From an uncultured Candidatus Saccharibacteria bacterium (GTDB taxonomy: Bacteria; Patescibacteriota; Doudnabacteria; UBA920): a stretch of 64,000 nucleotides of DNA. The translations under genes were made by a program, and so were the position numbers. The notes below the pieces were generated by a model. The model made no database searches. It saw only the letters and a list, made by a program, of their open reading frames with translations, and had not been told where the DNA came from. Shown piece after piece: positions 47,443-64,000 of the stretch (its first letter is position 1; the number at the start of each line of letters is the position of its first letter). The stretch spans positions 10,111 through 74,110 of the forward strand of contig CAZDEP010000003.1 in assembly GCA_964504715.1 (NCBI GenBank). Direction: 5' to 3'.

Positions 47443-47581
47443 TACAAACCAAAAAAACTTTTTTTGGTTTAACTACGCAATAATTTCGCACGATATATTC
47501 TACCGTCCCTCTAAGCATGCTAAAATATTAGAGGAGGCTTTTTGTTTAGATAAAAATTCCAACTATTTAAAACTACACAAC

Positions 47582-49060: not shown

Positions 49061-50167
49061 TTATTCGACTATTCGCTTTGTGACGTTTTCCCCCACCGGC
49101 AGCAGCCTGTCTGCACTGTTGGCTGGGACTACGGCAGAAAAGTCATTGTCAGGATTCCAGGAATTGTAGACGTCCAAGGAAGGATAAGGGTGGCGCGCCG
49201 TCGCTGTCAGGTAGTAAATGGTGCCGTTGTCGCTAATGTTTAGGCCGGGTTTGTGGCGGACGGTACCTTGGGACAAAATGTCGCCCAAAGGCAGGCCATC
49301 CAGCTCAGGAGCGGTAACTACCAGGACGGAAGAGAACTTAAAGCCCAATGTACTAAAGACCTGGGAAGAGACAAAACCGTGCTTTTGGCCTTCGGCTATT
49401 AAGTACACTGTGGGATTAGTGGGAGATTTAACAAGGCTGCCGCTGCCGGGCTTTAAAAGGGTGCCTTCGGGTACGCTTAAGTCTACGGAACTTGCCGGCT
49501 TGGCGTCTTTGAATTCCAAGCCATAGGATTTAAGCATGCCGGGGTTGGTTACGCCCTGCCTTTGGCCGTTTTGGATGACGTAGAAAGTACCGGAGTTGTT
49601 GATGAGTTTAATTGAATACGCGGAACCGTAAGTATTGCCTGAAGAGCCGGTTAATGACGATCCGCCGCTCGAAGATCCCGATGAAGATCCTCCCCCGCCG
49701 CTAGAAGACCCTGACCCGCCTGAGCTGTATGATCCTCCGCCGCCTCCCCCGCCGCCGCCTGATGATCCCGAGCCTTCCGAAAGTACCGGGGGATTTGACC
49801 CGCCTTGGGTGCCGCCCGTCTGGCTGTCAGCCGGCGTGGTGAAGGAAAATTTTTCCGGCCCCACCCAGCCGCCTGACTTATCGTAGGAAAATAAGGAATA
49901 ATAATAAGCCGTCCCGCCGGCAACGGTCGAATCGGTATAAGTGCTTGAACCGCAGACCAAGGTTGTCAAAGGCTGTTCGTTACCCGGCGAGCTTAGGTGG
50001 CCGAACGTCGAACGGAAAATTTTCATGCTGGCACAATCTTCGTCTTCTGTGAGTTCCCATTCCAAAGTAACAGGCGCCGCGGCAAGCGCAGGCCGGATTA
50101 AACTGAATACCAAAAAACAAAAGCTGAAGGAAGCCAAACCAAGGAAAAATTTTCTGTTCATAATCAT
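49061..50167 (-). CDS. secreted protein: N-terminal FN3-like domain, Gly/Ser-rich linker, and a ~190-aa C-terminal domain nearly identical to the C-terminus of the 54673-58173 protein
   Basis: Signal peptide. GGGGGGGGSYSSGGSGSSS linker. C-terminus SIKLINNSGTFYVIQNGQRQGVTNPGMLKSYGLEFKDAKPAS... is shared with the other gene. Confidence 0.7.
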   Translation of the reverse strand: MIMNRKFFLGLASFSFCFLVFSLIRPALAAAPVTLEWELTEDEDCASMKIFRSTFGHLSSPGNEQPLTTLVCGSSTYTDSTVAGGTAYYYSLFSYDKSGGWVGPEKFSFTTPADSQTGGTQGGSNPPVLSEGSGSSGGGGGGGGGSYSSGGSGSSSGGGGSSSGSSSGGSSLTGSSGNTYGSAYSIKLINNSGTFYVIQNGQRQGVTNPGMLKSYGLEFKDAKPASSVDLSVPEGTLLKPGSGSLVKSPTNPTVYLIAEGQKHGFVSSQVFSTLGFKFSSVLVVTAPELDGLPLGDILSQGTVRHKPGLNISDNGTIYYLTATARHPYPSLDVYNSWNPDNDFSAVVPANSADRLLPVGENVTKRIVE

Positions 50168-50181
50168 TAATTATGGATTTC

Positions 50182-53100
50182 TTAAGGCCGAGGCAAAAAC
50201 GCCCATTTAGGCGAACCGTTAAATCGGTCCTGATAACCTATGTGCGTCCTATACCACTCCCAGGCATCCAAGCCCGAGCGGCCGTTATAAGAGAATTTGG
50301 TTAAGAAGGAGGAAGCGCCGTAGCTCAACACCGAATAGCCGCCCTCGTAATCGCCGTCATTAACAAAGCCCGAAGTCCTGAGCTGGTACTGCAACTGCAT
50401 GGCATCTTTAACCTGTGCCCAGGTCTGGAAATAATTCCCGCTTAAGTCCATGGAAGGCGTGCGGTAATCCTGCGTGTAATAGGGGCTGTAAGAAGGATCA
50501 AAAACCTGCCCGAGCAAATTCTGGGCAAACCTTTCGCGCATAGGGCCAATTTGCGGATAGCCTAATTCTTCAATATGCCCAAACACCACGTGCAGAAAGG
50601 CATTTTGGAAAGGAATGCTCACGCGCGAAGCTTTGCTGGTGTCAGCTTCGCCATCCGCGCCATAGCCGCCGCTTAGGAAATTTAAAGGATTCGGGAATTT
50701 ATTAAAGGCGTTTTTGCCGATGCACCAAATAGAAGTTTCAGCCATCTTGTTAAACGGATTGGTTGAACACGGCTGGTAGAAATAACCATTGGTTACATTA
50801 AACGAACCTTCACGAACAGCCAAGTTATTCATTAACTTGTCGGTAAAATATTTCTTTTCCGGCGTACCGTCCGGCGCTATAGATGCCGTCTCGGCTATGC
50901 TTCTAAATGCCCAAGCCACGCCCCTGTCTTCATGCGCGAACAAGCCTTTGTTATTTAGGCGCGTATTGGGATTCGGCACCATTAAGTCGTAACCCGCCAC
51001 ATTGTATAAGCTTTCCAATATATACCAATCCCCGCTCAAAAGATACGGGATATAGTAATAGTTCGGTTCGTGGGTAACATCGGGTGTCCAACCCGGAGTT
51101 TGGTCGTCATCGACAGCGAACATATAATCACCGTCCTGGTCCGCGCTTTTGCTTGTGTTGCCGTAAGTCTTGGGCCGCGCATCCAAGGAAATACTGCGGC
51201 CGAACATATCGTCGCTCATGCCAGAGACATACGCTTTGCCCGTCTTAAGTTCCCGCGCCTGCAAAGGTACCTGGTTGGCAGCTTCCACGTTGCCCATTAG
51301 TTCAGAAAAAAGTTCCGGATTCCTGCTGTCTTGCGACTTCATGGAATACAAATAAACCATTTGCCAGGTAGTGAACAGGCCAATGTCGGGACGTTGGCCG
51401 GCGGCGGGCTGATTTTTCCAAATTTGTCCCTGCACGCCCAATGTAGGATTGTAGCCAATGTCGCCCTTGTCGCTATTGCGCCAGCCTGGCGTGTGGCCTT
51501 CCGAATGTGAATAGCCGGTATCCAGCATGGCGTTTATGGCGCCATCGGTAATATTCAAATTGGTGTTAAAATTCGGAATGGCTTTACTGTAAACCAAATA
51601 GGGCAAATTGTAATCTATATAAGAAGTTCCCGGCGTTTGGCCAATATAGAAAGTCTTGCGCCAGCGCGTGCGCGCCAGCTGGGTAATGTTGGCCTTGGAA
51701 TAGACCGGCGTTAAGCCGGCACCCAGCTTTAATGTTAAGTCATACTTTTGATTCTGCAATTTCTGCGTCCACATATTTTCCAAAATCATTTCGACTTTGG
51801 TGGAATTTGGGGTTTTGGGAGTAAAGGTTGCCACAAAAATCGGATGCATGGCTTTAAACAAGGAGGTGTCCGCCGCGCGCCAGCCACTAACGCCTTCTAC
51901 AGTACCAAGCGCGCCCCAGGCGGCAACGCTGAGTTCCGGCGTACCGCCGTATTTGCGGCCGTCCGCATTCGGGCAAGAGCTCACCCCAATTTTTAAAGTA
52001 TTGCCGGTCTTGCCGCAAATTCTTATTCTTTCTCCAAACAGGTTTACTACCGAAGGCACCGGAATATCGCTGGCATCCAGCACGTTCATGGTCGTATCCC
52101 CGGCTCTAAAATAGCCGTTGGGCGTGGCCAAAAACGAAGTTTTATTTTTATAGCCAAAATCGTACTTTAAGGCCGTACTTCTGTCTTCCAAAATTATTTG
52201 CGTAACAATAGACCCTTTTAGCCAATACCTGAAATCCCCGTTTTGGAGCATTGTACGGGCACTGGCTGACTGTGTGCTTCCGTCTTTACTGGTTTCAATC
52301 TGAGCATCAAAATTATATCCGGCCGCGAGCATTTGGTCTTTGGTCAGGGCCTGCGCTGTGCCGCAATTGCAGTTCGACTGGTTTACGAAATCTACATTTA
52401 ACGAACCATTGCCCGGCAAAGTAGCCACAAAAGAAATAATAACATGTTTTACGCTGCCGTCCTCGTAGCGGCTCATTACATCTGCCTGGGTAAGAGTTGC
52501 CGAGCCATTCACCCTCGCCTGCGGATAATTGGTTATTTCACCTTTGGCAAATACGCGCGAGATGGAAAAAGTCCGCTGTTCCGATTGCGCGGCCCCGCTT
52601 TTTATAGTTACGCCATTAGAAGAGGGCATGGGATTAACTATGGCCGGCACGGTGGAACCGTATGTTGGTATGGTAGAAGAAGTGGTAGAAGTGGGTGTTG
52701 GATTGGGCGTGGGGGTGGAAATAGGCGGGGAGATCACCGCTTCTTTTTTCATCCAGGACAATTTTGCCACGGCATCAACGGCATTTTCAAAATATTCCAT
52801 TTTTACCGTGTGGGTGCCGGCTGTTAAAGTTTTGGTATAGCTGTAAGTCGTTGCCGACTGGTTTATCCATTTGTCTATAATTGCCTGGCCGTCCACATAC
52901 ACTCTTACGCCGTCGTCTGCCGTCGCTGCAAAAATATAATCAGCCGCTTCAAAATTAAATTTGCCTTCGTAAGTAGCGGAAAATTTGTCCGCCGGCACGA
53001 GGGAGGAAGGGCTGCCGCCGGCCCAGTCAAAATTAATGGAATTAACCGTGGAAGTGGCTTTTAAAGTTTCAAAATTCATGCCCGCGTAGTAGCAAGCAGT

Positions 53101-54444
53101 AAAAGCGTTGGTAGCCGCGGAAGGACACACAAACTGGGGAGGAGATGAAGTCGGGGGTGTAGATACCGGGGGATCGGTTGAGATGGGAGTGGTAGTGGCC
53201 GCTGACTGGTCCAAGGCCGTATAATATTTGCGTGCAAGCAAAACACCCTTGCCATTGGGTTCGCTGTAAAATTCCACCTTGACCCTGGATTTGGGCGAAA
53301 TAACATACCCCGAATAAGCCGAACCCTCTTTCGGGGCGTTAGCTAAAATTGCGGCGCCGTTTACATACAAAGAACCGGAGCGGTCCAAAGTCCTTTGCCA
53401 CTCAACTCGGTAATTCCAAAAATTATTTTGGTAGCTTGCGGCTGTCACGGAAATTTTTAAAGACCGGTTATTTACAAGTTGGCGGGTGTAAATCACCGTA
53501 TCGTTTGTTGTGGTAGTCGGGGTGGAAGTTGGCCCCGAAGCCTGGGCGGGCGGCTGGGTGGTAGTGGTGGGGGTAGATGTAGCAGGGGGGGTGGTCGGCG
53601 TGGTAACGACAGGCTGGTTCGGGCTCGTGGCGGGCGCGCCGGCAAAAGCGTAAATGTCGGAAACTTCCTGGCCGCTTAAAGCGCGGTTATAAATCCTCAG
53701 TTCGTCCAGTTCGCCGTAGTATGGGTTGCGTGGCGAATCGTCTTTGTCTCCCAGGGTGATGTTGGGATTGCTGCTTAAAGCAAGCGTGGTAGCCGTACGG
53801 GTAGCCTGCAAAGCGCCGTTTATGAACAAAGACAAAAGTCCGGTAGATTTGGCACGCTCGGCGCAAAAATGCTGCCAGGCGTCGTTGCTGACTTGGGAAG
53901 TGCTGCGGATACTTTTGTCTATGTTAATATCCGGACTGGCGCCGCCAACGCCAAAGACAAACCTGCCCCATGCGTCCACTCCCATCCCGAAGTCCTGTCC
54001 TATCCCCCTCGATTCCGAAGTGACTATGGCGGTGGATTGGTAATGTTCGGCGTCAGTGCCTTCGGCGTCGGTTTTTATCCAGGCACAAATTGTAAAGTCA
54101 TCCTGGACCGGCTTTTTAAAAATTATTTTCTGCGTGCCGTTGCCGTCAAAGCTCGCGGCCTTGCCTATTTTCCCTTCAGCCTGGCTGGCGGTATTGGTTG
54201 TCGGCTTGTATTCGTCGGAAACCAAAAATCCGCCCTCAAAAGGAGCGGATTGATTTTCAAAAGGCAAATATACCACCAAGCCGCTGGTAGTCACCTCGCC
54301 CAAAACACGGGGATTCTTAACAATTGATGCGGCTGTCTGGGCGGCCAGGTTGTCTACGTAAAGGCTGGTCAAAAAACCCTGGTAGCCCACGGTCAGCATG
54401 CACAGAGAAGCAAATACCCAAACGGTAAATAATCGGCGGTTCAT
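50182..54444 (-). CDS. giant (1420 aa) secreted protein with an N-terminal LamG/concanavalin A-like domain and a PA14-like domain, followed by a ~800-aa uncharacterised (possibly polysaccharide-active) region
   Basis: Signal peptide. LamG signature ...GELDELRIYNRALSGQEV. PA14-like YYAGMNFETL...FSATYEGKF...FAATADDGVRVYVDGQAIIDKW. Confidence 0.75.
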   Translation of the reverse strand: MNRRLFTVWVFASLCMLTVGYQGFLTSLYVDNLAAQTAASIVKNPRVLGEVTTSGLVVYLPFENQSAPFEGGFLVSDEYKPTTNTASQAEGKIGKAASFDGNGTQKIIFKKPVQDDFTICAWIKTDAEGTDAEHYQSTAIVTSESRGIGQDFGMGVDAWGRFVFGVGGASPDINIDKSIRSTSQVSNDAWQHFCAERAKSTGLLSLFINGALQATRTATTLALSSNPNITLGDKDDSPRNPYYGELDELRIYNRALSGQEVSDIYAFAGAPATSPNQPVVTTPTTPPATSTPTTTTQPPAQASGPTSTPTTTTNDTVIYTRQLVNNRSLKISVTAASYQNNFWNYRVEWQRTLDRSGSLYVNGAAILANAPKEGSAYSGYVISPKSRVKVEFYSEPNGKGVLLARKYYTALDQSAATTTPISTDPPVSTPPTSSPPQFVCPSAATNAFTACYYAGMNFETLKATSTVNSINFDWAGGSPSSLVPADKFSATYEGKFNFEAADYIFAATADDGVRVYVDGQAIIDKWINQSATTYSYTKTLTAGTHTVKMEYFENAVDAVAKLSWMKKEAVISPPISTPTPNPTPTSTTSSTIPTYGSTVPAIVNPMPSSNGVTIKSGAAQSEQRTFSISRVFAKGEITNYPQARVNGSATLTQADVMSRYEDGSVKHVIISFVATLPGNGSLNVDFVNQSNCNCGTAQALTKDQMLAAGYNFDAQIETSKDGSTQSASARTMLQNGDFRYWLKGSIVTQIILEDRSTALKYDFGYKNKTSFLATPNGYFRAGDTTMNVLDASDIPVPSVVNLFGERIRICGKTGNTLKIGVSSCPNADGRKYGGTPELSVAAWGALGTVEGVSGWRAADTSLFKAMHPIFVATFTPKTPNSTKVEMILENMWTQKLQNQKYDLTLKLGAGLTPVYSKANITQLARTRWRKTFYIGQTPGTSYIDYNLPYLVYSKAIPNFNTNLNITDGAINAMLDTGYSHSEGHTPGWRNSDKGDIGYNPTLGVQGQIWKNQPAAGQRPDIGLFTTWQMVYLYSMKSQDSRNPELFSELMGNVEAANQVPLQARELKTGKAYVSGMSDDMFGRSISLDARPKTYGNTSKSADQDGDYMFAVDDDQTPGWTPDVTHEPNYYYIPYLLSGDWYILESLYNVAGYDLMVPNPNTRLNNKGLFAHEDRGVAWAFRSIAETASIAPDGTPEKKYFTDKLMNNLAVREGSFNVTNGYFYQPCSTNPFNKMAETSIWCIGKNAFNKFPNPLNFLSGGYGADGEADTSKASRVSIPFQNAFLHVVFGHIEELGYPQIGPMRERFAQNLLGQVFDPSYSPYYTQDYRTPSMDLSGNYFQTWAQVKDAMQLQYQLRTSGFVNDGDYEGGYSVLSYGASSFLTKFSYNGRSGLDAWEWYRTHIGYQDRFNGSPKWAFLPRP

Positions 54445-54672
54445 TATTTTTTTGTTAAAAACAAATAGTTAAAATTTTTATCTTTACAACGACTACGCAA
54501 AAAACTTCGGAACCAAAAAAACCTTGCAAAAAAACTTAAGGAGCCGGCTCCTCGGACCAAAATATTTTATTGTATTTTTGTTTGCTTTTATTTCAAATCC
54601 GAAACTCAAACTGTATATATTATAGCACATCTAGAAAATTTTGTCCAATGGAAATTCTCGCTTATTGATGCT

Positions 54673-57600
54673 TTATTCCACCACCCTCTTTGCCACCACA
54701 TCGCCTATGGGTATTTGCCGGTCGGCTTCGTTAGCCGGGACTACGGCGGAAAAGTCATTGTCCGCGTTCCAGGAGTTGTAGACATCCAAAGAGGGATAAG
54801 GCAGCCTGTGGGTGTCGGTCAGGTAATAAACGGTGCCATTGTCGCTGATGTTAAGGCCGGCTTTGTGGCGGGCAGTACCTTGGGACAAGATTTCTCCCAA
54901 AGACATACTGTCAAGTTCCGGAGCCGTAACCACCAGTACGGAAGAGAACTTAAAGCCTAAAGCCGAGAAAACCTGGGAAGAGACAAAACCGTGCTTTTGG
55001 CTGTTGGCAATCAGGTAGACTGTGGGATTTAATGGGGATTTGACCAAGCTGCCGTCTGCGGGCTTAAGTAGCGAGCCTTCGGCCACGCCTAAGTCCACGG
55101 GACTGGCAGGCTTGGCGTCTTTAAATTCCAAACCGTAAGTCTTGAGCATGCCCGGGTTGGTAACGCCCTGGCGCTGGCCGTTTTGGACTACATAAAAAGT
55201 GCCGGAGTTGTTGATGAGTTTAATTGAATCGCCCAAACTTTGGCGCGGCAAAACTGACGGCGAGGCGGGCATAACCCCAAACGATCCCCCACTCCCGCCC
55301 GATCCGCCAGATGCGGACGAAGGACCGGAAGATCCCGCTCCGCCTGAAACGGGCGGAAGATTAGGCCCAAGTTGGGCGGGAGGAATTGGGGCCGAAGACG
55401 GAGGAGTTGAAGTGGCTAATGGAATTCCGCTAACAGTGGAAGGCGGAGTGCCGGAGGCGTTTGGCGCGGGAGGGTTATTCGGAAGTGCCGCAGAAGTTGA
55501 TGTTGCTGCCGGCGCGGCAGGTGGCGTGATGACAACCGGCGGAACTGCCGGCGCAGCGGGTAAAGTTCCGCCGACCGAATACGCAAAATCCAAAGGCCCG
55601 TAAGTTGCATTGGTAATGCCGGTCGGGTACCAGGTATTTTGAGAAGTGAAATACACGCCGCTGTTTGCAAAAGCGTCGCCCGTGGTAACCACGCGGCTGT
55701 CCAAATCGCGCCATGTATCCCCTGCCGCCCTTTCCTGGCTGACCAGGTAATAAGTTTTATTGGCGGACAAAACCACCGGCGCGGAAAGCTGCGCGTAGGC
55801 AAACTGGCCGGACGCAAAATTGGCGAGGTTAATACTGACCTGCGTGCCGCTTACGTCCTGCCCGGCTGAGGCATCAACAATTTTTAATTGATGATTTTCA
55901 ATGCTGCCGCTTTCTACAAATCTTGCCAGGGCTTTGATTGTCAAATTAGCGCTGCCGACAGTAAACTTCGTCCCCACCCAGCCGGTGTAGTCGCTGCGCA
56001 GCGTGCCTAAAGTTTTACCGGTTACAAAAATTTGGCTGCCGGAAGGAGGAGTTGATATCGTTCCCAAAGGGGCGGGAGCCGGCGACGGGGCAGGAACAGG
56101 AGCGGGTGGAACAACGGGAGTTGATGTGGCAACCGGCGCAGGGGCGGGAGTGGGAGCAGGAGCCGGCGCAGGGATGGGGCTGGGCGCGGGAGCGGGCGGC
56201 GGAGTGGTGGGGCTAGGGGGCGTGCCCACATAATATTTAAAATCCACGGGAACATAAGACGTCCTTGAAATGCCGGTGGTGCTGTAACCTGAACCGTTGT
56301 AATATACGCCGTTATTTACCGCTGCGTCGGTTTTCGTGCTTAAAATAGTGTTGCCATTGTTATGCCACTGGTCCCCCAAGATGGTTTCCTGGCTTACTAT
56401 ATAGTAAGACGTATTCGCGGAAAGAGTAACCGGCGAGGACACATCTGTATAAGCAAACTGGCCCGCGGTTTTTCCAGATGTTGTTACCGTGGCCGAACCC
56501 AAATCGGAGGCGTCAGAAGCGCGGACAATTTTCACGGCATGATTTTGGCTGTTGCCCGTTACCACATAGCGACCCAGGGCAGTTAAAGTAATAGGCTGGC
56601 TGCCCACAGTCATGGAAAAACCCACCCAGCCCGAATAATCGTTCCGGAGTGAATCAAAAGAATTTACGGAAGTTACAAAGCCGGCCGAAGAGGTTACGGG
56701 CGAAGGCGCGGGAGCCGGGGCGGGGCTGGGGGCGGGAGCGGGAGAAGGGCTGGGAGAGGCGGCCGCGGTTAGGGTTATGTTGGAACTTGTCTGGTTGCCG
56801 TTGCCGGAAAAAACATTGCCTGAGCCGCTAACGCCGGAAAAAGCGGCAGAGCCCGCGCCGGACACGGCGTAAGAGGCGTTGCCGGAAAAATTGTTGTCGG
56901 AAATTACCACACCCTGGGACTGCGCTGGCGTGTTCCAAAAAGTTATCCCGTCGCGCGAATGGCCGCTAAAGCTGTTCGAGCTTATGTTGAAGCCGTTTAA
57001 ATTTGCGTTGCCGCCAAAAACTATCCCGGCAAGCTGGGGCTGGGAAGCGTTGGTGCTGGAAAAGGTATTGCCAGAAACAGTGACGTTCTGCCCCCCGTTG
57101 TTGAAATACAGTCCGCCTGTCAAGTTGGAGCTTTTGTTGTTGCGGATAGTATTTCCGGAGAAACTTGAATTGCGCAAAATTTCCGAAGAGGCGCCGTCTT
57201 CATTTACCACATAAATGCCCGACTGGGTATTTTCCTCAAATATGTTATTGCTGACGGTTACGTTGCGCGCGCCGTAATTTAAGGTTACCTGCAAACCATG
57301 GCAATCGTTCCGGTTTGCGGTGTTGCCGGAAATTAGGCCGGTGGAATTCGCGTTATAATACCCATCCATTAAAACTTTAAGTCCGGCGCAGCCGGTGTCA
57401 TTGGCCGTGTTGTTTTGTACTTTTACGGTGCCCGTGCCCTGAACCACAATGCCGGAGTGGCCCGTTTTGTAGACAAAGTTGCCTTCCACAGTCGGATCGG
57501 TCTCTATTGCCGACTGCCACCAGTTGCCCAGCCACATGCCGCGCATGACCCGAACGCTTGGCTGCGGCAGGTTGGTGGTATCGCGGTCTATGGTAATATT

Positions 57601-58173: not shown

Positions 58174-58190
58174 ACATTCTTAATTAATTA

Positions 58191-58244
58191 GGACTAATAG
58201 GTCGAATAGGTCGCATGAGACTTATAAGTCCTATAAATTTATAG
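58191..58244 (-). promoter_or_regulatory. conserved upstream element: palindromic CTTATAAG followed by tandem GACCTAT(T)C repeats, ~20-65 nt upstream of the start codon; it recurs upstream of the next two genes on this strand
   Basis: Minus-strand reading: tataggacttataagtctcatgcgacctattcgacctattagtcc...ATG. Similar copies occur at 60937-60967 and 63037-63100. Confidence 0.4.
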
Positions 58245-58248
58245 TAGC

Positions 58249-60360
58249 TTATTTGCCCAAAGTATAAAGACGGTAGACTTCGGCGGCGGTAAGGGAGCGG
58301 GAATATACGCGCACGTCGTCCAGACTGCCGTCAAAGTCGCCGGCATCGCCTGCGCACGAACCCGTAGAGTATGCTAGCCATAGATAATTACTTAAGCCAC
58401 TGGCAATGTACGTAGCCTGGGAAGTGGTATTTTCCAAAGAACCATTGACGTAAATTTTCAAGCCGCCGCTCGCGTCCCAGGTATTTACTATGTGCGTCCA
58501 AACTCCGCTGCTTATGGTGGATGTGCCGGTTACCGAAACCCCTCCCCCATTCCAACTGTAGCCGCGGGCATAGCCCGATACAATTGCCATTGGCGGCAGG
58601 CACCAACCTAAGGCGTCAGCTCGAGAAGACATGTGAATTATATTCCCGTCGGTTTCCCCGCTGTTCGGCCTTACCCAAGCCGCGAAAGTATAGTCTCGGT
58701 TGGAAGTGCCCGCTTCGCTAAAACCGCTTGCGGTAGTGTACTGGCCGCTGCCCGTAAAATTCATGCCCTGGCCAACTTTCCCAATGGCCGGGGCAGGACT
58801 GCCCGTAAGAGTTGAATTTCGCGCGTTGCCGCTGCGGTCGTAAACTGTGGCGCCGGAAACGTCGGGACCGTCAAAACTCCACAGGCCCACCAGGCCTTCC
58901 GTCATTTTGCTGTTTTGCGACGCGTTAACTTTGGTTTCATTCTGCGTATAAAGCGCGGCAATTTCGGCAGCCGACAACGCGCGGTTGTAAACGCGAACGT
59001 CGTCTATTATTCCGTTAAAATAGGCGTAAGTTCCACCTCCTAAATTAACATCTAAGCGCCCCATTTCAGGTTTTGAATCGGTAATGTTGGGCGACTGATC
59101 GCCCCCCACATCAAAATAGGCTGCGCCGGTTACCAACGAACCATCTACATATATTTTACTTGTCGATGCTATTAGGCCGGGAGTTTTAGTCATAACTACA
59201 AAATGCCATTCTGCGGTTGATAAAGCGTTATCGGCTTTAAATCTTTTTTGATAGAAATCCAAAGCTGGCCTTCCCCCATATAAAGTCATTGATAAACCCT
59301 GAGCTGTTGCATAGCGCTGTATTGAAATTGGCGCTGCATAATTAGAGTACCACTGACTTGCTTTTACCCACAGACTTAAAGTTAATGTTGCATCTCCCGA
59401 AATCCCTAAATTTTGACTTCCAACAATGTAGTTAGTGCTGCCGTTAAAATTAAGTGCGCCGCCTTTTTTACCAGTGGTCCAAGTTGCAGATGTTATTATT
59501 CCTGTGTTGCCGTTTCCGCTTGAGTCGCCGGCATGTCCGCCCGAGCCTTCATTCATTGGCCAGTAGCCCACTAGGCCGGAATTGGAAACCAATTTTCTGG
59601 TAACCTGCCCGCTTTGGTAAAGCGCGGTGATTTCGGTGGCGCTTAACTCACGGCTATAAAGCCTCAAGTCATCTATTTTGCCGTTAAAAAAAGCTTGTTC
59701 GTTTACGCCTGTGGGGGCATCAACGCCAATATATAGAGGAGCCGATGTGGTTTCGGTGTTTAAGAGCCCGCTTACTGCGCCGTCCGCCACTCCGTCCAAA
59801 TAAAATGTTCCTGTCTTTGCCGCATTGTTAAAAACAAACGCCACATGATGCCAGGTGTTGAGGCTGGGGGATGTGTTGCTTGTCCTTAAAGCGGACCCGC
59901 CAAACTCCTGATACCAAATTAATTTATTCCCATTTGAAAGGCCAAATTCGTAAGTAGGCGAATTTAAACCATCGTTCTTGCTAATAATAATTCTATATGT
60001 GCCTGCTCCGCCAGCTATGTATATCCAGGCTGCCGTAGTTATGTCAGTACTTATCATATCCAAAGCCGGAGTGGTAGATGCGGCAATGTAGTCGCTGCTG
60101 CCGTTAAAATTCAAAGCACCGCCTTTTTTACCAGTTGTCCAAGTCCCGCCGGTTATTGTTCCGGCGTTGCCGTTGCCGCTTGCGTCGCCGGCTTTGTAGC
60201 CGGTGGCGTCGTCAAGCGGCCAGTAGCCCACGAGGCCGAGGTTGCTCGGCGGTTTGCCTATGGTGGCGGCCAAGGCTGTTTTGGGCAATGGGAAAAAGGC
60301 GGCGAGAATGGCCAAAAGGAGGAAAAGGGTGAAATGGGTTTTAAAAGGTGAAAGGGGCAT
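58249..60360 (-). CDS. secreted protein with four tandem concanavalin A-like lectin/LamG (Laminin_G_3-type) domains
   Basis: Signal peptide, then four repeats of LVGYWP(L/M)(D/N)...GDSSGNGN.G.I....W..G..G.AL.FNG...YI ... DDVRVYNRALSAAEI. Confidence 0.8.
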   Translation of the reverse strand: MPLSPFKTHFTLFLLLAILAAFFPLPKTALAATIGKPPSNLGLVGYWPLDDATGYKAGDASGNGNAGTITGGTWTTGKKGGALNFNGSSDYIAASTTPALDMISTDITTAAWIYIAGGAGTYRIIISKNDGLNSPTYEFGLSNGNKLIWYQEFGGSALRTSNTSPSLNTWHHVAFVFNNAAKTGTFYLDGVADGAVSGLLNTETTSAPLYIGVDAPTGVNEQAFFNGKIDDLRLYSRELSATEITALYQSGQVTRKLVSNSGLVGYWPMNEGSGGHAGDSSGNGNTGIITSATWTTGKKGGALNFNGSTNYIVGSQNLGISGDATLTLSLWVKASQWYSNYAAPISIQRYATAQGLSMTLYGGRPALDFYQKRFKADNALSTAEWHFVVMTKTPGLIASTSKIYVDGSLVTGAAYFDVGGDQSPNITDSKPEMGRLDVNLGGGTYAYFNGIIDDVRVYNRALSAAEIAALYTQNETKVNASQNSKMTEGLVGLWSFDGPDVSGATVYDRSGNARNSTLTGSPAPAIGKVGQGMNFTGSGQYTTASGFSEAGTSNRDYTFAAWVRPNSGETDGNIIHMSSRADALGWCLPPMAIVSGYARGYSWNGGGVSVTGTSTISSGVWTHIVNTWDASGGLKIYVNGSLENTTSQATYIASGLSNYLWLAYSTGSCAGDAGDFDGSLDDVRVYSRSLTAAEVYRLYTLGK

Positions 60361-60372
60361 AAAAGGGGTTAA

Positions 60373-60927
60373 TTACCAATTCCAGCTGGTTAAAATGTCG
60401 CTGACTAATTGCTGGTTTTCAATTTTTGCCGAAATTTGGTACAAATGCCCGCTATGGACAAACCACACTTCCCGCGTTTTGCTTCCGCCCGCATCACTTT
60501 CAAACGCCACGGCCGGTTCGCCGTCGACCATTACATCCATAGTTTGCTCCATTGGCATATCGGGCAAATCCTGCGAAATTTTTTGCGCGGTGAGCGGGCC
60601 TTTTTCACTGAACTCCGTAACATATATTTGCGTTTGGCGGTTTTGCTCCCCTGTTAATTTTACCATAAGCATTTCGCCTTCGCCTTCGGGAAAAGTGCCG
60701 GTGCTGAATTTTTCGGCAAGCGAAAAGGTAAAGCCAAAAAGCGGATGGGTGTAGCTAAAACTTTCCGCGGAATTTTTTTGCGGTTGCAATAAGGCTGCGG
60801 GGTTTTGGAAAATGGTTTTTTCCGTGTTTGAGGCTTGGTCGGTTTTTTTACTTTTATCCCAAACAAACGTCCCGGCCGCTAAGGCTAAGATAATGGCGAT
60901 TAAGATATAAGGGAGATTTTTTTTCAT
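60373..60927 (-). CDS. hypothetical membrane-anchored extracytoplasmic protein (184 aa)
   Basis: N-terminal TM anchor with a soluble domain. It is inserted between two LamG paralogs and has the same upstream motif. Confidence 0.5.
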   Translation of the reverse strand: MKKNLPYILIAIILALAAGTFVWDKSKKTDQASNTEKTIFQNPAALLQPQKNSAESFSYTHPLFGFTFSLAEKFSTGTFPEGEGEMLMVKLTGEQNRQTQIYVTEFSEKGPLTAQKISQDLPDMPMEQTMDVMVDGEPAVAFESDAGGSKTREVWFVHSGHLYQISAKIENQQLVSDILTSWNW

Positions 60928-60936
60928 AAAAATTTT

Positions 60937-60967
60937 AATAGGTCCAATAGGACTTATAAGCCCTATT
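60937..60967 (-). promoter_or_regulatory. second copy of the CTTATAAG / (G)GACCTATT-repeat upstream element (upstream of the 60373-60927 gene; it overlaps the stop codon of the 60963-63083 gene)
   Basis: Minus-strand reading: aatagggcttataagtcctattggacctattaaaatttttATG. Confidence 0.4.
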
Positions 60968-63083
60968 TTCCTAAATTATAAAGCTGCTTAATTTCCGCGG
61001 CCGAAAGGGCGCGGTTGTAAATGCGGACTTCGTCTAAAATCCCGTTAAAATAATACCCCGCTATTCCCGCAATACTGCCAAGGGTAATATCCACATTGCT
61101 TGTCCAGCTGTAAGAAAGCGTACCGCTCCCGTCAGCCGTGCCGTTTAAATAAAAAGTGGCACTTGTTCCGTTTATTGAAACCGCGGCGTGATACCATTCG
61201 TCTGTATTTAAAATCGTGTTAGCGTAAATAGCCGGACCGCCGGAGTCAAACAATGCCAGTCTTTGATAGTTGGCCTCGGGGCTGCCGTTAATTCCGGTGA
61301 CAACAAAATTCAAACCAGGCCGGCGGCTTACTATTCCGGCCCTATACGAACTCGTAAACGCAGAGACTTTTATCCAGGCCGAAAAAGTCATGGCACTAAG
61401 CCCATTGAAACTCGCCTTCTGTCCGACATTAATAGTGTCGTCCACTCCGTCAAAACTCCAACCCTGGCCGATTCTGCCGGCGTCCGCGCGGCCGCCGGAA
61501 TTGTCGCCGTTGTTGCCCTGGCCGCTCATATCCAAAATTTCCGCGGTGGTAGACGCCATATTTAAATTATTCCCGTTAAAGCTCCACAAACCCACCAGGC
61601 CGTCGGTGAGCCGGTTGTTGGTATTGGCGTTCAGCGTAGTTTCGTTTTGTCTGTAAAGATTTTGGATTTCGGCTGCGGAGAGCGCGCGGTTGTAAAAGCG
61701 GAGGTCGTCATACTTTCCGGTAAAAGGTATACCATGTCCATACCCAATACGGGCAGAAGAATCTACGGTGGCCTGAAAATTTGCGTTACTCCTGGAAGTT
61801 ACTAGTGCGCCATTTACATACACAGCCATTGTATCATTGGCCACGGCATCGGAAGTGCCCGACCAAGTAAAGGCTATGTAAGACCATTGATTTTGGGGTA
61901 TATAAGATGAAGTGGTAAAAGTTAAATCATTACTGCAACAGTCTGAACCGTTGCCCATGCGAAAATAAAATGTTCCGCCCCAATAATTAAACATAGAAAT
62001 CCAATCCACCCAGTTTTGGCTGGCAGAATCGTGGGTTTGCCAGAAGCCCCACTGCGCGGCTGTCGGATAAACCCATCCGGCAACCGTGCCATTGGTAGAA
62101 CTTATACCTGTGGTATTGTGAGTCAGGTACGTGTCGCCTCCCGCGAAATTTAATCCATTACTCCGTTTGCCATTTATCCAGGTAGGGAGAGCCCCGCCCG
62201 CAAACGTGGCAGTATTAGCTTTTCCACTGCTGTCCCCCGCCACGGTGCCGCGGTTTTCGTTAAAAGGCCAATACCCCACAAGGCCTCGTTCGCTGACGGA
62301 TTTTCTTGTCACCTGTCCGGAACGGTAAAGAGTTGCAACGTCGGCTGCCGACAAAGCGCGATTGTATACGCGCACGTCGTCTATTTGTCCGTCAAAATGA
62401 TGTCCGGTAGCGCAACAATAGGCCAATTTGCCGATTGTGAACGGATTGGAATCGTAAGATATGGAAGCTACTGTGTGAGAATGCGTGCCCACCTGCACCC
62501 CATTAACGTACAAATATAAATTGCCTGAAGCGGAATAGGTACCAACCACATGATACCATTGTCCGACCGGCAATAGGACAGATACGCTGTCATATGACCC
62601 ATCACCAACTTCAAAAATAAATGAGTTACTGGCCGTGTAATAACCAAAAAAATACCCTGTCCCGCTGTTTAAATTCCCGCCACTCTCCACTACCGGTCCC
62701 CATTCATTATCTACAGCATCCGGCTTAATCCAAGCAGATACTGTTAAGGCTGTTGTGGGATTTAACACTGACGATGCAGTGACTGATACATGTTGGTCTG
62801 TGCCGTTAAAATCTAAAGCTTTCCCCCTCTTCCCGCTTGCCCAACTTGCGCCGGTAATTGTGCCGGTGTTGCCGTTGCCGGAAGAGTCGCTGGCAATTAC
62901 GCCACTGGCGTCGTCAAGCGGCCAGTAGCCCACGAGCCCAAGATTGCTCGGGGCTTTGGTGAGGGTGGCGGCGCGGACGGGGAGGGGTCGGGCGAAGGGC
63001 GCGGTTAAAATAGCGGCGATGATTATAGTCAACGCAAGATAAGTCTTATAAGTCGTATTGGTCGCATAGGTCTTATTTGTCAT
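60963..63083 (-). CDS. secreted protein with four tandem LamG/concanavalin A-like domains; paralog of 58249-60360
   Basis: Same repeat signature (LVGYWPLDDASG...SSGNGNTGTITGASW..GKRGKALDFNG...; DDVRVYNRALSAADV; DEVRIYNRALSAAEI). Confidence 0.8.
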   Translation of the reverse strand: MTNKTYATNTTYKTYLALTIIIAAILTAPFARPLPVRAATLTKAPSNLGLVGYWPLDDASGVIASDSSGNGNTGTITGASWASGKRGKALDFNGTDQHVSVTASSVLNPTTALTVSAWIKPDAVDNEWGPVVESGGNLNSGTGYFFGYYTASNSFIFEVGDGSYDSVSVLLPVGQWYHVVGTYSASGNLYLYVNGVQVGTHSHTVASISYDSNPFTIGKLAYCCATGHHFDGQIDDVRVYNRALSAADVATLYRSGQVTRKSVSERGLVGYWPFNENRGTVAGDSSGKANTATFAGGALPTWINGKRSNGLNFAGGDTYLTHNTTGISSTNGTVAGWVYPTAAQWGFWQTHDSASQNWVDWISMFNYWGGTFYFRMGNGSDCCSNDLTFTTSSYIPQNQWSYIAFTWSGTSDAVANDTMAVYVNGALVTSRSNANFQATVDSSARIGYGHGIPFTGKYDDLRFYNRALSAAEIQNLYRQNETTLNANTNNRLTDGLVGLWSFNGNNLNMASTTAEILDMSGQGNNGDNSGGRADAGRIGQGWSFDGVDDTINVGQKASFNGLSAMTFSAWIKVSAFTSSYRAGIVSRRPGLNFVVTGINGSPEANYQRLALFDSGGPAIYANTILNTDEWYHAAVSINGTSATFYLNGTADGSGTLSYSWTSNVDITLGSIAGIAGYYFNGILDEVRIYNRALSAAEIKQLYNLGK

Positions 63084-63101
63084 ATAGGTCGTATTGGTCC
63101 T

Positions 63102-64000
63102 TTACCTAATTTTCACCTGGCCACGGACTTTTATGGCCGGGGCTGTGCCTGTGCCGCCGGCGCCGGATTTGGAGCTGGTTTGTGTGGCGCCAAAGGAATA
63201 AAAAGTAGCCGGATTGCTTTGGTTGTTATATTCGGTAGCAACCCAGTCGGGACCGCGGGCCATGCCCTTGCTTAAACGGATTTCGTCCCCATACCCACTC
63301 AACATTTCACTGGCGACATCTTGCGTGTTAAAAAGCACCAGGGTATCTACGTCGGTAACCGGCGCGGCGTTACCGGTGTTGGCCCACGCGCCGGTAACTT
63401 GAACACCATCCACATATAATTTTGCGGTTGTGCTGCTGGCAAAAGTATAAGTGAAAACATAATGATGATACGCCGTAATATCCGTATCGGCCACGTTATG
63501 GTAATACGCCGCCCACGAAACATCGCCCGACTCGCGGTAATGAAAACTAATGGAATTAGAAACAGATTCCCCCACCCCGCCACCATTAAAGTCAAATTCC
63601 AAATTACGCTTGCTGCTAGAGCCGGCTTTTACCAGAGAAATTATTGGCCTATAACTAGTCGTGCCAATCCGCTTAATCCAAGCTTCTATGGTTATAATGT
63701 CCGCGGAATTATATGCCAGGGCGCCCATGGCAGAACGCTTGGCAAAAGCCGAAGTACTTGTAGCGCTGGCACCTCCATCTATATAGCCCGCAGCCGGGTA
63801 GACCGTGCTGTTATTGGTTAAATTATAAGCGTTAGTGGTTGAATCGTTAAGCGAAAGGGTTGTGCCGTTGGCTAAATGGTACACGGCCTTATAATAACTA
63901 TCCCACGTGGAAGTCGCATTCTGCTGGTCGGCGGCGCCGCTGTTGCCGTAATATAAATATAAAACCGTATCAGATGTGCCTGAAAGCGTGGGCACGTTTA
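63102..64000 (-). CDS. C-terminal part of another large LamG/jelly-roll-like secreted protein (the gene continues beyond the window end)
   Basis: The ORF runs to the window edge. Its composition is similar to the neighbours (N.S/T-rich, ...YHHYVFTY...LYVDGVQV). Confidence 0.55.
   Translation of the reverse strand, partial: NVPTLSGTSDTVLYLYYGNSGAADQQNATSTWDSYYKAVYHLANGTTLSLNDSTTNAYNLTNNSTVYPAAGYIDGGASATSTSAFAKRSAMGALAYNSADIITIEAWIKRIGTTSYRPIISLVKAGSSSKRNLEFDFNGGGVGESVSNSISFHYRESGDVSWAAYYHNVADTDITAYHHYVFTYTFASSTTAKLYVDGVQVTGAWANTGNAAPVTDVDTLVLFNTQDVASEMLSGYGDEIRLSKGMARGPDWVATEYNNQSNPATFYSFGATQTSSKSGAGGTGTAPAIKVRGQVKIR

What the first reader, a model, noticed from the sequence alone, without database searches (positions are those of the whole stretch)
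49061..64000. Minus-strand array of giant secreted beta-helix / LamG / PA14 proteins with paralog expansion
Six consecutive large exported proteins (368, 1420, 1166, 703, 706 and >297 aa) plus one 184-aa protein are all on the minus strand. They combine right-handed beta-helix repeats, concanavalin A-like/LamG repeats (two paralogs with exactly four LamG units each), a PA14 domain, Pro/Ala/Thr linkers and a shared C-terminal module. With the 1785-aa beta-helix/LamG protein at 32.6-38 kb and the type IV pilin-like gene at 27.9 kb, this looks like a dedicated cell-surface adhesion or glycan-processing locus. Such loci are typical of surface-attached or episymbiotic uncultivated bacteria and are largely uncharacterised.
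Basis: partly seen in the sequence, partly recalled or inferred. Interest (0 to 1): 0.65.

Follow-up and report, generated by a model that had tools for sequence, protein, structure and literature searches.

The report
Saccharibacteria surface lectin and glycan-enzyme array
A soil Saccharibacteria (TM7) genome carries a row of seven exported genes for sugar-binding and probably sugar-cutting surface proteins; the type is expected for these episymbionts, but two building blocks belong to large families that the Pfam and NCBIfam libraries do not cover.

Summary
Seven co-directional minus-strand genes (49061-64000) encode proteins whose N-termini look like export signals. They carry LamG, PA14 and right-handed beta-helix domains and Pro/Ala/Thr linkers. 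The two LamG paralogues have three units each, not four. Only p368 and p1166 share the C-terminal module.

The organism is a Candidatus Saccharibacteria MAG. Lectin-rich surface arrays are a known feature of this group.

Two parts go beyond existing annotation:
- **p1420 residues 610-1420.** This region has no Pfam, NCBIfam or PDB sequence match. Its model is confident (pLDDT 91.8), and its closest solved fold is the PL26 exo-rhamnogalacturonan lyase. In Acidobacteriota and Alphaproteobacteria, relatives are stand-alone exported proteins inside Wzx/Wzy polysaccharide-synthesis clusters. In Saccharibacteria the domain is fused to LamG, with or without PA14, and has no such neighbours. A rough tree suggests it was acquired horizontally.
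- **The 184-residue C-terminal module.** It consists of three repeats resembling the EccB periplasmic repeats. The family has 4302 cluster representatives, usually with the module at the extreme C-terminus. Multi-repeat relatives sit in Amidase_2/SpoIID proteins, so it is probably a cell-wall-binding anchor.

My best reading is a wall-tethered toolkit for binding and cutting glycans. No activity or substrate has been tested.

The parts
63102..64000 (-). p297+: the C-terminal 297+ aa of a larger exported protein whose 5' end is cut by the window end. Weak DUF2341 followed by a LamG domain.
   Evidence: ORF. Laminin_G_3 at 41.3 bits. DUF2341 at E 0.014. 25% identity to p1785 residues 1473-1687.
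60963..63083 (-). p706: exported protein made of three tandem LamG (Laminin_G_3) units.
   Evidence: Pfam 271.8 bits in 3 stretches. Units align to each other and to the p703 units at 28-40% identity.
60373..60927 (-). p184: small protein with an N-terminal membrane anchor and a weak full-length PsbP_2-like match.
   Evidence: Sequence. PsbP_2 at E 0.0011 and 19.4 bits, below the cut-off of 27.
58249..60360 (-). p703: second three-unit LamG protein, a paralogue of p706 at 35% identity.
   Evidence: Pfam 241.2 bits in 3 stretches. Full-length BLASTP match to p706 at E 7e-99. Unit alignments.
54673..58173 (-). p1166: signal peptide, right-handed beta-helix head, two DUF4082-like beta-domains separated by Pro/Ala linkers, and the C-terminal three-repeat module.
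   Evidence: The head has only 3 homologues in the word-indexed search of 5.8 billion proteins.
56794..58092 (-). p1166 residues 28-460: right-handed parallel beta-helix.
   Evidence: PF13229 at 55.5 bits in 3 stretches. TIGR03804 repeat.
55573..56655 (-). p1166 residues 507-867: two DUF4082-like units (507-645 and 717-867), 43% identical to each other, joined by a Pro/Ala linker.
   Evidence: DUF4082 at E 2.9e-5 and 24.5 bits, below the cut-off of 28.4. Internal duplication at E 1.7e-38.
54676..55227 (-). p1166 residues 983-1166: C-terminal module of three EccB-repeat-like units, a candidate cell-wall anchor.
   Evidence: 83% identical to p368 residues 185-368. Three repeats with i-E values of 1e-19 to 1e-23.
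54619..54647 (-). Promoter-like site TGGACA-17-TATAAT with an upstream TG, in the 228-bp gap ahead of p1420.
   Evidence: 11 of 12 matches. This is a consensus match only.
50182..54444 (-). p1420: signal or anchor, LamG, unassigned beta-domain, PA14, then an 811-aa PL26-like enzyme-type region.
53650..54297 (-). p1420 residues 50-265: LamG domain.
   Evidence: Laminin_G_3 at 79.8 bits over residues 114-262. An N-terminal LamG was also found in six of the eight related Saccharibacteria loci scanned.
52744..53100 (-). p1420 residues 449-567: PA14 domain.
   Evidence: PF07691 at 67.3 bits. Absent in L004, L005 and L006 and duplicated in L001 and L002.
50185..52617 (-). p1420 residues 610-1420: N-terminal beta domains followed by an alpha-helical toroid-like domain. 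A remote PL26 (PcRGLX-like) relative and a candidate polysaccharide lyase or hydrolase.
   Evidence: No Pfam, NCBIfam or PDB sequence match. AF2 model with pLDDT 91.8 and pTM 0.92. Foldseek top hits are 5xq3/5xqg, PL26 (E 3e-5, prob 1.0, TM 0.34). 6 of 36 relatives weakly hit PcRGLX_1st. Invariant residues: W741, G744, P868, W928, N946, Y949, S1086, H1125, G1138, R1174, W1178, G1213.
49061..50167 (-). p368: signal peptide, fn3-like domain (by eye), Gly/Ser linker, and the C-terminal three-repeat module.
   Evidence: Sequence. Linker at residues 117-187. Homologue P0076 carries fn3. No Pfam hit at E <= 1.
49064..49615 (-). p368 residues 185-368: C-terminal module of three EccB-repeat-like units, a candidate cell-wall anchor.
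   Evidence: AF2 model with pLDDT 92.6. Foldseek matches EccB periplasmic repeats at E 4e-5. 4302 cluster representatives. Usually at the extreme C-terminus. Multi-repeat relatives sit in Amidase_2/SpoIID proteins, and one is above the Pfam EccB cut-off.

Best explanation
The array is an exported set of surface proteins from a soil Candidatus Saccharibacteria bacterium. It binds polysaccharide and probably also cuts it.

**Shown**
- All seven products begin with a basic-then-hydrophobic N-terminus that looks like a Sec signal or anchor.
- Eight LamG units, one PA14 and two DUF4082-like units supply lectin-type binding surfaces.
- p1166 has a right-handed beta-helix.
- p1420 ends in an 811-aa domain whose closest known structure is the PL26 exo-rhamnogalacturonan lyase.
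- p368 and p1166 end in a conserved three-repeat module.

**Inferred**
1. The three-repeat module binds cell wall. This would tether p1166 and p368 non-covalently to peptidoglycan or a wall polymer, of the bacterium itself or of its host. The repeats have the fold of EccB periplasmic repeats. One multi-repeat relative scores above the Pfam EccB cut-off. Multi-repeat relatives lie between Amidase_2 and SpoIID catalytic domains, the usual position of wall-binding repeats.
2. The p1420 C-terminal domain is a carbohydrate-active enzyme for an acidic exopolysaccharide-type polymer, most likely a lyase. Its free-living relatives are exported proteins encoded inside Wzx/Wzy polysaccharide-synthesis clusters, and its fold relative works by beta-elimination. 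In Saccharibacteria the domain has no such neighbours and is fused to LamG, with or without PA14. These would act as targeting modules.
3. The likely role is to attach to, loosen or feed on the extracellular polysaccharide or envelope glycans of host or neighbouring cells.
4. The enzyme domain probably entered Saccharibacteria by horizontal transfer from Acidobacteriota-like donors, long enough ago that its codon composition now matches the genome.
For: **Organism.** The closest loci, L001-L006 (51-84% identity), are all Candidatus Saccharibacteria MAGs.

**Domains.** Pfam hits are above the cut-offs.

**Enzyme domain**
- The model is confident: pLDDT 91.8, pTM 0.92, beta domains followed by about 12 helices.
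- The only Foldseek PDB hits with E < 1e-3 are five chains of PL26 PcRGLX.
- Pfam PcRGLX_1st is weakly hit by 6 of 36 family members, and 9 of 36 carry dockerin.
- 12 columns are invariant across 36 diverse members and are kept in the window protein.
- Purifying selection is strong.

**Genomic context of relatives**
- All seven non-Saccharibacteria places read with gene tables are carbohydrate-related. Four lie inside or beside polysaccharide-synthesis clusters with Wza/Bac_transf/Wzz or Wzx/Wzy genes, two lie next to a single Wzy_C or GT4 gene, and one directly follows a PL8 lyase.
- 17 of 21 Bryobacterales, Terriglobia and Solibacter loci have such genes within 10 kb. None of 8 Saccharibacteria loci does.
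- Acidobacterial members have signal peptides followed immediately by the domain.
- The LamG fusion was detected in six of the eight related Saccharibacteria loci scanned, and in the window.
- In the NJ tree the main Saccharibacteria clade nests within the Terriglobia/Bryobacterales group. GC3 equals that of the rest of the genome.

**Module**
- The model has pLDDT 92.6.
- EccB repeat domains are the top 11 PDB hits. EccB1 repeats resemble the wall-binding PlyCB (PMC4769845).
- The family has 4302 representatives.
- In 99 of the top 147 the module lies within 10 residues of the C-terminus, and 115 of 137 have a hydrophobic N-terminus.
- Heads vary: Beta_helix, fn3, Big_7, DUF3472.
- P0089, with 16 repeats, hits PF05108 EccB at 39.3 bits against a cut-off of 27. 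Of 17 multi-repeat relatives, 9 carry SpoIID and 7 carry Amidase_2.
- dN/dS between the two window copies is 0.12.

**Literature.** Glycan-binding or glycan-degrading surface proteins are essential for epibiotic growth of a cultured Saccharibacterium (PMC10633639). Soil Saccharibacteria carry enlarged CAZyme sets (PMC6031116).
Against: - No activity, substrate or localisation has been measured for any of these proteins.
- Location inside biosynthetic clusters fits a polymer-modifying enzyme, such as an epimerase or a chain-length trimmer, as well as it fits a depolymerase.
- The EccB-type fold match also has low TM (0.29), and the wall-binding role of EccB repeats is itself untested.
- The module profile has no direct sequence hit to any PDB chain.
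- The taxonomic range of the module family could not be established.
- Conservation of the array is limited to one relative.
- The LamGx3 proteins carry no recognisable anchor.
- Signal peptides were judged by eye.
Confidence: 0.55

Rival explanations
1. The array is a saprotrophic foraging set. The proteins degrade plant or necromass polysaccharides such as pectin or rhamnogalacturonan in soil for carbon, and host attachment plays no part.
For: - The closest fold relative is a pectin (RG-I) lyase (PMC13501991).
- Soil Saccharibacteria are reported to have enlarged CAZyme repertoires, including pectin degradation (PMC6031116).
- 9 of 36 family members carry dockerins, as cellulosome-type degraders do.
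- One relative directly follows a PL8 lyase.
- p1785 in the same window has two pectate-lyase-like beta-helix units by eye.
Against: - No sugar transporters, downstream catabolic genes or other recognised GH or PL families lie next to the array.
- Most free-living relatives sit in biosynthetic, not catabolic, clusters.
- Wall-tethering modules and rapidly diverging LamG arrays (35-38% identity against 65-73% for neighbouring genes) look more like surface-interaction proteins.
Confidence: 0.2
2. The function is directed at the cell itself. The PL26-like protein trims or modifies the bacterium's own extracellular polysaccharide, as its relatives in Wzx/Wzy clusters presumably do. The other proteins are structural components of the cell's own coat.
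For: - The family is embedded in Wzx/Wzy/GT clusters in Acidobacteriota and Alphaproteobacteria.
- Saccharibacteria can make an EPS that contributes to growth on the host (PMC10633639).
- The wall-binding module would suit a coat protein.
Against: - None of the 8 Saccharibacteria loci, nor the window itself, has Wzx, Wzy, GT4, Wzz or Bac_transf genes within 10 kb of the gene.
- The Saccharibacteria versions have gained lectin domains (LamG, PA14), which is typical of enzymes that must find an external substrate.
Confidence: 0.15
3. The proteins are adhesins without catalysis. The beta-helix and the PL26-like domain are inactive scaffolds used only for binding, and the array is a lectin coat.
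For: - LamG, PA14 and DUF4082-like domains dominate.
- CPR genomes are known for concanavalin-type lectins thought to mediate attachment (bioRxiv 10.1101/2025.02.25.640227).
- The beta-helix head has no match to a catalytic family.
Against: - The PL26-like domain keeps all 12 invariant columns and the near-invariant polar residues shared with 35 distant relatives (N946, Y949, H1125, Y1134, D1139, R1174, E1212).
- It evolves under strong constraint. That pattern is expected of an active site.
Confidence: 0.1

Closest known systems
PL26 exo-rhamnogalacturonan lyase (PcRGLX of Penicillium chrysogenum, PDB 5XQ3/5XQG; Pfam PcRGLX_1st, PF19501)
   Same: - It is the best and only significant structural match for p1420 residues 610-1420 (Foldseek E 3e-5, prob 1.0).
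- Domain order is the same: beta domains first, helical toroid-like domain last.
- Six relatives weakly match the PL26 N-terminal RIFT-barrel model.
   Different: - There is no significant sequence similarity for the window protein, and global TM is only 0.34.
- Genomic context is Wzx/Wzy EPS synthesis clusters in bacteria rather than pectin degradation.
- Here the domain is fused to LamG and PA14.
- Catalytic residues were not compared.
EccB periplasmic repeat domains of the mycobacterial type VII (ESX) secretion system (PDB 4KK7, 5EBC, 7NP7; Pfam PF05108)
   Same: - The repeat fold of the C-terminal module matches EccB repeats (E 4e-5 to 1e-3, prob about 1).
- A 16-repeat member of the same family scores above the Pfam EccB cut-off.
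- Both lie outside the membrane in the cell envelope.
   Different: - The module has no EccB transmembrane helix or central domain, and no ESX genes are nearby.
- It has three repeats at the C-terminus of unrelated secreted proteins.
- The window proteins have no Pfam EccB hit, and the arrangement differs (TM 0.29).
Cell-wall-binding repeat modules of Gram-positive surface proteins and peptidoglycan hydrolases (SLH, CWB2, LysM, SH3b, PlyCB)
   Same: - Terminal position on exported proteins with interchangeable heads.
- Tandem repeats, and co-occurrence with Amidase_2 and SpoIID catalytic domains.
- EccB1 repeats were reported to resemble PlyCB (PMC4769845).
   Different: - None of those families matches by sequence.
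- Binding has not been tested, and the ligand is unknown.
Concanavalin A-like/LamG lectin surface proteins of CPR/Patescibacteria, and the glycan-binding surface proteins essential in Southlakia epibionticum
   Same: - They share the organism group, export and lectin-type domains.
- They share the proposed role in attachment to host glycans or their degradation.
   Different: - The domain families named in Southlakia are different (VCBS, dockerin, fn3).
- No orthology was shown.
- This genome is a soil-type lineage with an unknown host.
Enzymes encoded inside exopolysaccharide synthesis clusters (AlgL-type lyases; PslG- and BcsZ-type hydrolases)
   Same: These are exported enzymes encoded in the same orientation as Wzx, Wzy and GT genes, as most free-living relatives of the p1420 domain are. 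The comparison to AlgL, PslG and BcsZ comes from my own knowledge.
   Different: - There is no sequence or fold relation to those families.
- The Saccharibacteria copies have left the biosynthetic context.

Membership tests
PL26 (PcRGLX-like polysaccharide lyase) | Significant sequence similarity to PL26 members or to the Pfam PcRGLX domain models | tested here: not met
   The window protein has 0 Pfam families at E <= 1. phmmer and a family profile against PDB sequences, which include 5XQ3, find nothing at E <= 1 and E <= 10. Only 6 of 36 relatives hit PcRGLX_1st, best E 0.0019.
PL26 (PcRGLX-like polysaccharide lyase) | Three-domain fold: N-terminal barrel, beta-sandwich, helical toroid | tested here: inconclusive
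PL26 (PcRGLX-like polysaccharide lyase) | Conserved catalytic residues and beta-elimination of Rha-(1->4)-GalA bonds | not testable with these tools
   Neither model coordinates nor a PL26 alignment was available, and no biochemistry was possible. The activity of PL26 is taken from PMC13501991.
Laminin_G_3 / LamG (concanavalin A-like) | Pfam PF13385 above the gathering score | tested here: met
   p1420 79.8 bits, p703 241.2 bits, p706 271.8 bits and p297 41.3 bits, against a cut-off of 27.6.
PA14 | Pfam PF07691 above the gathering score | tested here: met
   p1420 residues 449-567 score 67.3 bits against a cut-off of 24.
Right-handed parallel beta-helix (PF13229) | Pfam Beta_helix above the gathering score | tested here: met
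   p1166 scores 55.5 bits against 25.9, in 3 stretches. This was not met for p1785.
DUF4082 | Pfam PF13313 above the gathering score | tested here: inconclusive
   p1166 residues 525-640 score 24.5 bits against a cut-off of 28.4, E 2.9e-5. A second copy is 43% identical.
T7SS EccB (PF05108) | Full EccB architecture: N-terminal transmembrane helix, central domain and four repeats, within an ESX locus | tested here: not met
   p368 and p1166 have no PF05108 hit, and no ESX genes lie in the window. Only the repeat fold matches, and one distant multi-repeat relative passes the cut-off.
Cell-wall-binding repeat (functional class) | Binding to peptidoglycan or a wall polymer | not testable with these tools
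   Support is by association only: Amidase_2 and SpoIID partners, terminal position and the EccB/PlyCB resemblance.
TafC fimbrial protein (NF052521) | NCBIfam score above the cut-off of 410 | tested here: not met
   p703 scores 117 bits and p706 126 bits. Only the LamG part of the model (positions about 150-364 of 373) matches.
PsbP_2 (PF18933), for p184 | Pfam score above the gathering score of 27 | tested here: inconclusive
   19.4 bits, E 0.0011, covering nearly the full length.
Type IV pilin (N_methyl), gene at 27866-28486 | N-terminal methylation motif | tested here: met
   PF07963 scores 33.3 bits against 21.2. The motif KGFTLLEVLVVVAIIG is present. No link to the array was shown.

The most novel reading that the evidence does not exclude
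**Enzyme family.** The 811-aa domain would define a new polysaccharide lyase family, or possibly an epimerase family, distantly derived from PL26. It would be a regular but unrecognised component of Wzx/Wzy exopolysaccharide clusters in Acidobacteriota and Alphaproteobacteria. Saccharibacteria would have captured it at least twice, fused it to lectin domains, and now use it to breach or feed on the extracellular polysaccharide of other bacteria.

**Anchor module.** The EccB-like triple repeat would be a new, widespread peptidoglycan-binding anchor. Its fold is otherwise seen in actinobacterial EccB and in actinophage proteins. It might therefore recognise the actinobacterial (host) wall rather than the symbiont's own.
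Probability: 0.25. Interest if true: 0.7.

Novelty: new variant of a known kind. Interest (0 to 1): 0.45.

Why it matters
How Saccharibacteria and other CPR bacteria recognise, hold and exploit host cells is still largely unknown. Genetics in one cultured strain points to glycan-binding or glycan-degrading surface proteins (PMC10633639).

This locus offers two concrete, testable parts:
- **A candidate enzyme.** Its domain boundaries and conserved residues are defined, and it comes from a family with no entry in the Pfam or NCBIfam libraries. The same family would also fill a gap in the annotation of acidobacterial exopolysaccharide clusters.
- **A candidate wall anchor.** It has 4302 cluster representatives and no entry in either library. 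A model for it would improve annotation of many large secreted proteins.

The LamG, PA14 and beta-helix content is itself ordinary for this group.

Tried and rejected
- **Source contig.** Exact-sequence look-ups of p1420 and p703 returned nothing. The cluster look-up gave no names. The window's own genome was therefore not identified, and the phylum is inferred from its closest relatives.
- **First genome scan.** The scan with the 36-sequence alignment failed for lack of conserved stretches. It was repeated with 14 sequences.
- **PDB sequence searches.** p1166, p1785 and p703 gave only low-complexity or LamG-level matches. The module profile gave nothing against PDB sequences.
- **Extra module copy in p1785.** Its C-terminus looks by eye like one module repeat. 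The whole-module HMM and the single-repeat HMM were not significant (i-E 65), so I rejected this.
- **TafC fimbrial subunit reading of p703 and p706.** Rejected: the scores are far below the cut-off and only the LamG part matches.
- **Viral contigs.** The module found nothing. The enzyme found 5 IMG/VR contigs at 27-35% identity, one from the same sample as an acidobacterial EPS-cluster contig. These are probably proviral or misassigned, and I did not pursue them.
- **RNA genes.** Rfam (whole window) and tRNA scans found nothing.
- **Literature.** Searches for Saccharibacteria with EccB or LamG found no paper. The primary PL26 structure paper is not in the library.
- **Recent transfer.** Rejected, because GC and GC3 of the enzyme part equal those of the rest of the genome.

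Full report
**1. What is in the sequence**

ORF listing confirms seven co-directional minus-strand ORFs between 49061 and 64000:
- p368: 49061-50167
- p1420: 50182-54444
- p1166: 54673-58173
- p703: 58249-60360
- p184: 60373-60927
- p706: 60963-63083
- an ORF of at least 297 aa that runs off the window end (63102-64000)

The gaps between genes are 18, 35, 12, 75, 228 and 14 bp. The only long gap lies ahead of p1420. It holds an 11-of-12 sigma-70-like site with an extended -10 TG. Two transcription units are therefore plausible.

Each complete product starts with a short basic stretch followed by a hydrophobic stretch. I judged this by eye; no signal-peptide predictor was available.

**2. Domains**

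Pfam hits above the curated cut-offs:
- Laminin_G_3 in p1420, p703, p706 and p297
- PA14 in p1420
- Beta_helix in p1166

Other features:
- p1166 also has two DUF4082-like units just below the cut-off. They are 43% identical to each other.
- p703 and p706 each consist of three LamG units of about 220 aa, not four. They are 35% identical over their full length.
- Pro/Ala/Thr/Ser/Gly-rich linkers separate the domains in p368, p1420 and p1166.
- p368 and p1166, and only those two, share a 184-residue C-terminal module. It is 83% identical in protein and 78% in DNA, with dN/dS 0.12 and dS about 1. Both copies are therefore old and constrained.
- p184 is a small membrane-anchored protein with a sub-threshold PsbP_2 match.
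- NCBIfam adds only sub-threshold matches. These include the LamG part of the haloarchaeal TafC fimbrial model, which does not amount to membership.

**3. Organism and conservation**

A genome-collection scan with the p1420 C-terminal family returned eight Candidatus Saccharibacteria MAGs. Six are close relatives at 51-84% identity. The rest of the window fits a small genome of that kind: IF3, Nramp, DsbA, a pilin and a copper-resistance island.

One relative, L003/L083, keeps the order LamGx3 -> p1420-like -> p368-like -> PaaX-like -> small genes -> IF3. It has no p1166.

Four other relatives with enough flanking sequence keep only the LamG-enzyme gene, in other surroundings. The array is therefore only partly conserved.

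The LamGx3 proteins are 35-38% identical between the two genomes, whereas flanking housekeeping genes are 65-73% identical. That is the pattern expected of fast-evolving surface proteins.

**4. The 811-aa C-terminal region of p1420**

This region has no match in Pfam, NCBIfam or PDB sequences.

A word-indexed search found 72 relatives. Most are stand-alone proteins of 720-850 aa without any Pfam domain, and some carry dockerins.

The AlphaFold2 model built on 36 sequences is confident (pLDDT 91.8, pTM 0.92). It shows beta domains over residues 1-335 of the fragment, then about twelve helices over 410-811.

In Foldseek against the PDB, the only matches below E 1e-3 are five chains of the PL26 exo-rhamnogalacturonan lyase PcRGLX (E 3e-5, prob 1.0). 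The global TM-score is low, at 0.34. Weaker matches are beta-sandwich plus (alpha/alpha)6 enzymes: GH94, GH63, GH88 and GH105.

Independent of the fold search, 6 of the 36 family members weakly match Pfam PcRGLX_1st.

Twelve columns are invariant across the family and are kept in the window protein. In p1420 numbering they are W741, G744, P868, W928, N946, Y949, S1086, H1125, G1138, R1174, W1178 and G1213. Near-invariant residues include Y1134, D1139, R1162, R1181 and E1212. A conserved His, Tyr, Arg and Asn set is compatible with beta-elimination chemistry. This is my inference; it has not been shown.

**5. Genomic context of that family**

I read seven non-Saccharibacteria places with gene tables. 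All seven are carbohydrate-related.
- Two lie inside clusters containing Wzx, Wzy_C, GT2 or GT4, asparagine-synthase-like and acyltransferase genes.
- One lies between GT4 genes and beside a Wzx flippase gene.
- One is next to Wza, Bac_transf, Wzz/GNVR and tyrosine-kinase genes.
- One is next to Wzy_C.
- One is next to a GT4 gene.
- One directly follows a PL8 lyase.

A tblastn survey found such biosynthesis genes within 10 kb in 17 of 21 Bryobacterales, Terriglobia and Solibacter loci. Alphaproteobacterial loci had Wzy_C or GT4. None of the 8 Saccharibacteria loci had any.

The acidobacterial proteins have signal peptides, and the domain starts immediately after them.

In Saccharibacteria the domain is preceded by LamG in six of the eight loci scanned, and in the window. 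PA14 is optional.

A rough NJ tree without support values places the main Saccharibacteria clade inside the Terriglobia/Bryobacterales group. One further Saccharibacteria sequence falls elsewhere. GC3 matches the rest of the genome, so any transfer is old.

**6. The C-terminal module**

The word-indexed search found only 13 close relatives. An exhaustive profile search found 4302 cluster representatives at E <= 1e-3, and 1862 at E <= 1e-10.

Among the best 147:
- 99 carry the full module within 10 residues of the C-terminus
- 9 carry it at the N-terminus
- 23 are multi-repeat arrays
- 115 of the 137 that start with Met have a hydrophobic N-terminus

The N-terminal parts ("heads") of these proteins vary: Beta_helix, fn3, Big_7, DUF3472 and GH141_M.

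The module splits into three repeats of about 57 aa. Its model has pLDDT 92.6.

The eleven best PDB matches are all EccB periplasmic repeat domains of ESX type VII secretion systems. Those repeats have been compared to the wall-binding PlyCB, without experimental proof (PMC4769845).

In BFVD the best matches are small uncharacterised proteins of a Rhodococcus phage and a Streptomyces phage.

Two results strengthen the wall-binding reading:
- A 16-repeat family member scores above the Pfam EccB cut-off (39.3 bits against 27).
- Of 17 multi-repeat relatives, 9 carry SpoIID and 7 carry Amidase_2, usually arranged as Amidase_2 - repeats - SpoIID.

I could not determine the taxonomic range of the family.

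**7. Interpretation**

The array is best read as exported lectin-type proteins plus two candidate glycan-active proteins. Two of the seven are tethered to the wall by a new type of anchor.

This matches what is already proposed for Saccharibacteria. Tn-seq in Southlakia found surface proteins with glycan-binding or glycan-degrading domains essential for epibiotic growth. Its authors suggested that host glycans are the target (PMC10633639). CPR lectins are a recognised feature. Soil Saccharibacteria have enlarged CAZyme sets (PMC6031116).

The evidence cannot separate three alternatives:
- host-directed action
- saprotrophic feeding
- action on the cell's own coat

It also cannot separate a lyase from a hydrolase or an epimerase.

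**8. Verdict**

The general interpretation is reasonable, but the claim of a 'dedicated locus' is weak.

The LamG, PA14 and beta-helix content is ordinary for the group. The added value lies in two families with no entry in the Pfam or NCBIfam libraries:
- a remote PL26-like enzyme family associated with Wzx/Wzy clusters
- an EccB-repeat-like terminal module

Both are new variants of known kinds, not new kinds. My interest score is moderate, at 0.45.

Noticed in passing
window 2871-24719 (minus strand): A copper or heavy-metal resistance island. It holds three P-type ATPases (2871-6482 with two HMA domains, 12480-14663 with HMBD, and 18863-20734). It also holds a DsbD_2-cupredoxin-HMA protein (6724-8409), a multicopper oxidase (20751-22361), DUF3105 (22365-22922) and DsbA (23898-24719). 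This is a large investment for a small Saccharibacteria genome.
   Followed up: partly
window 32653-38010 (minus strand), p1785: By eye it has two near-duplicate N-terminal pectate-lyase-like beta-helix units (about aa 30-380 and 575-960; motifs WYVS..GS..G.GSI..PW and GHGHG.Y.QN). Each unit is followed by a beta-sandwich. A CBM-like region, DUF2341 and a LamG-like end follow. Pfam detects only DUF2341 and Melibiase_C. The last 60 aa look like one module repeat, but the HMM match is not significant.
   Followed up: partly
L077 6403-10205; L078 8001-18412; L080 and L084: In Acidobacteriota the PL26-like family gene overlaps the end of a PL8 lyase gene in one genome. In others it sits in the same orientation inside Wzx/Wzy/GT clusters. 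This looks like a regular but unannotated component of acidobacterial exopolysaccharide loci.
   Followed up: partly
proteins P0201, P0203, P0209, P0212, P0215, P0222, P0224: A recurring architecture of Amidase_2, then 4-7 EccB-like repeats, then SpoIID. One also has two PA14 domains. This suggests a family of large peptidoglycan hydrolases that use the same repeat. Their organisms are unknown.
   Followed up: partly
BFVD entries A0A1I9SA71 (Rhodococcus phage Weasels2) and A0A345MGB2 (Streptomyces phage LukeCage): These small uncharacterised actinophage proteins are the best viral structural matches to the module (TM on target 0.71-0.72, 21-26% identity). Together with EccB, they tie the fold to Actinobacteria, the known hosts of cultured Saccharibacteria.
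   Followed up: no
window 58249-63083 compared with L003 2-2014: The LamGx3 proteins are only 35-38% identical to the syntenic orthologue. Neighbouring PaaX-like, small-protein and IF3 genes are 65-73% identical. The lectin genes appear to evolve unusually fast.
   Followed up: partly
L001 3054-8525, L004 8957-13387, L005 8948-14077: In these Saccharibacteria relatives the ORF continues 230-480 aa past the end of the PL26-like domain, so they carry extra C-terminal domains absent from the window protein. In L002 and L006 the gene is split into two overlapping ORFs, either a frameshift or an assembly error.
   Followed up: no
window 25824-26204 (+) and 26779-26982 (+): By eye, a small ORF with a GIY-YIG-like motif and a 67-aa cold-shock-like protein lie in the otherwise ORF-poor 24.8-27.8 kb stretch. 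Neither was tested against any library.
   Followed up: no
window 47363-48928 (+): A GCS2 (glutamate-cysteine ligase family 2) gene sits between the PaaX-like gene and p368. It is absent from the syntenic relative L003/L083, so it is a lineage-specific insertion next to the array.
   Followed up: no
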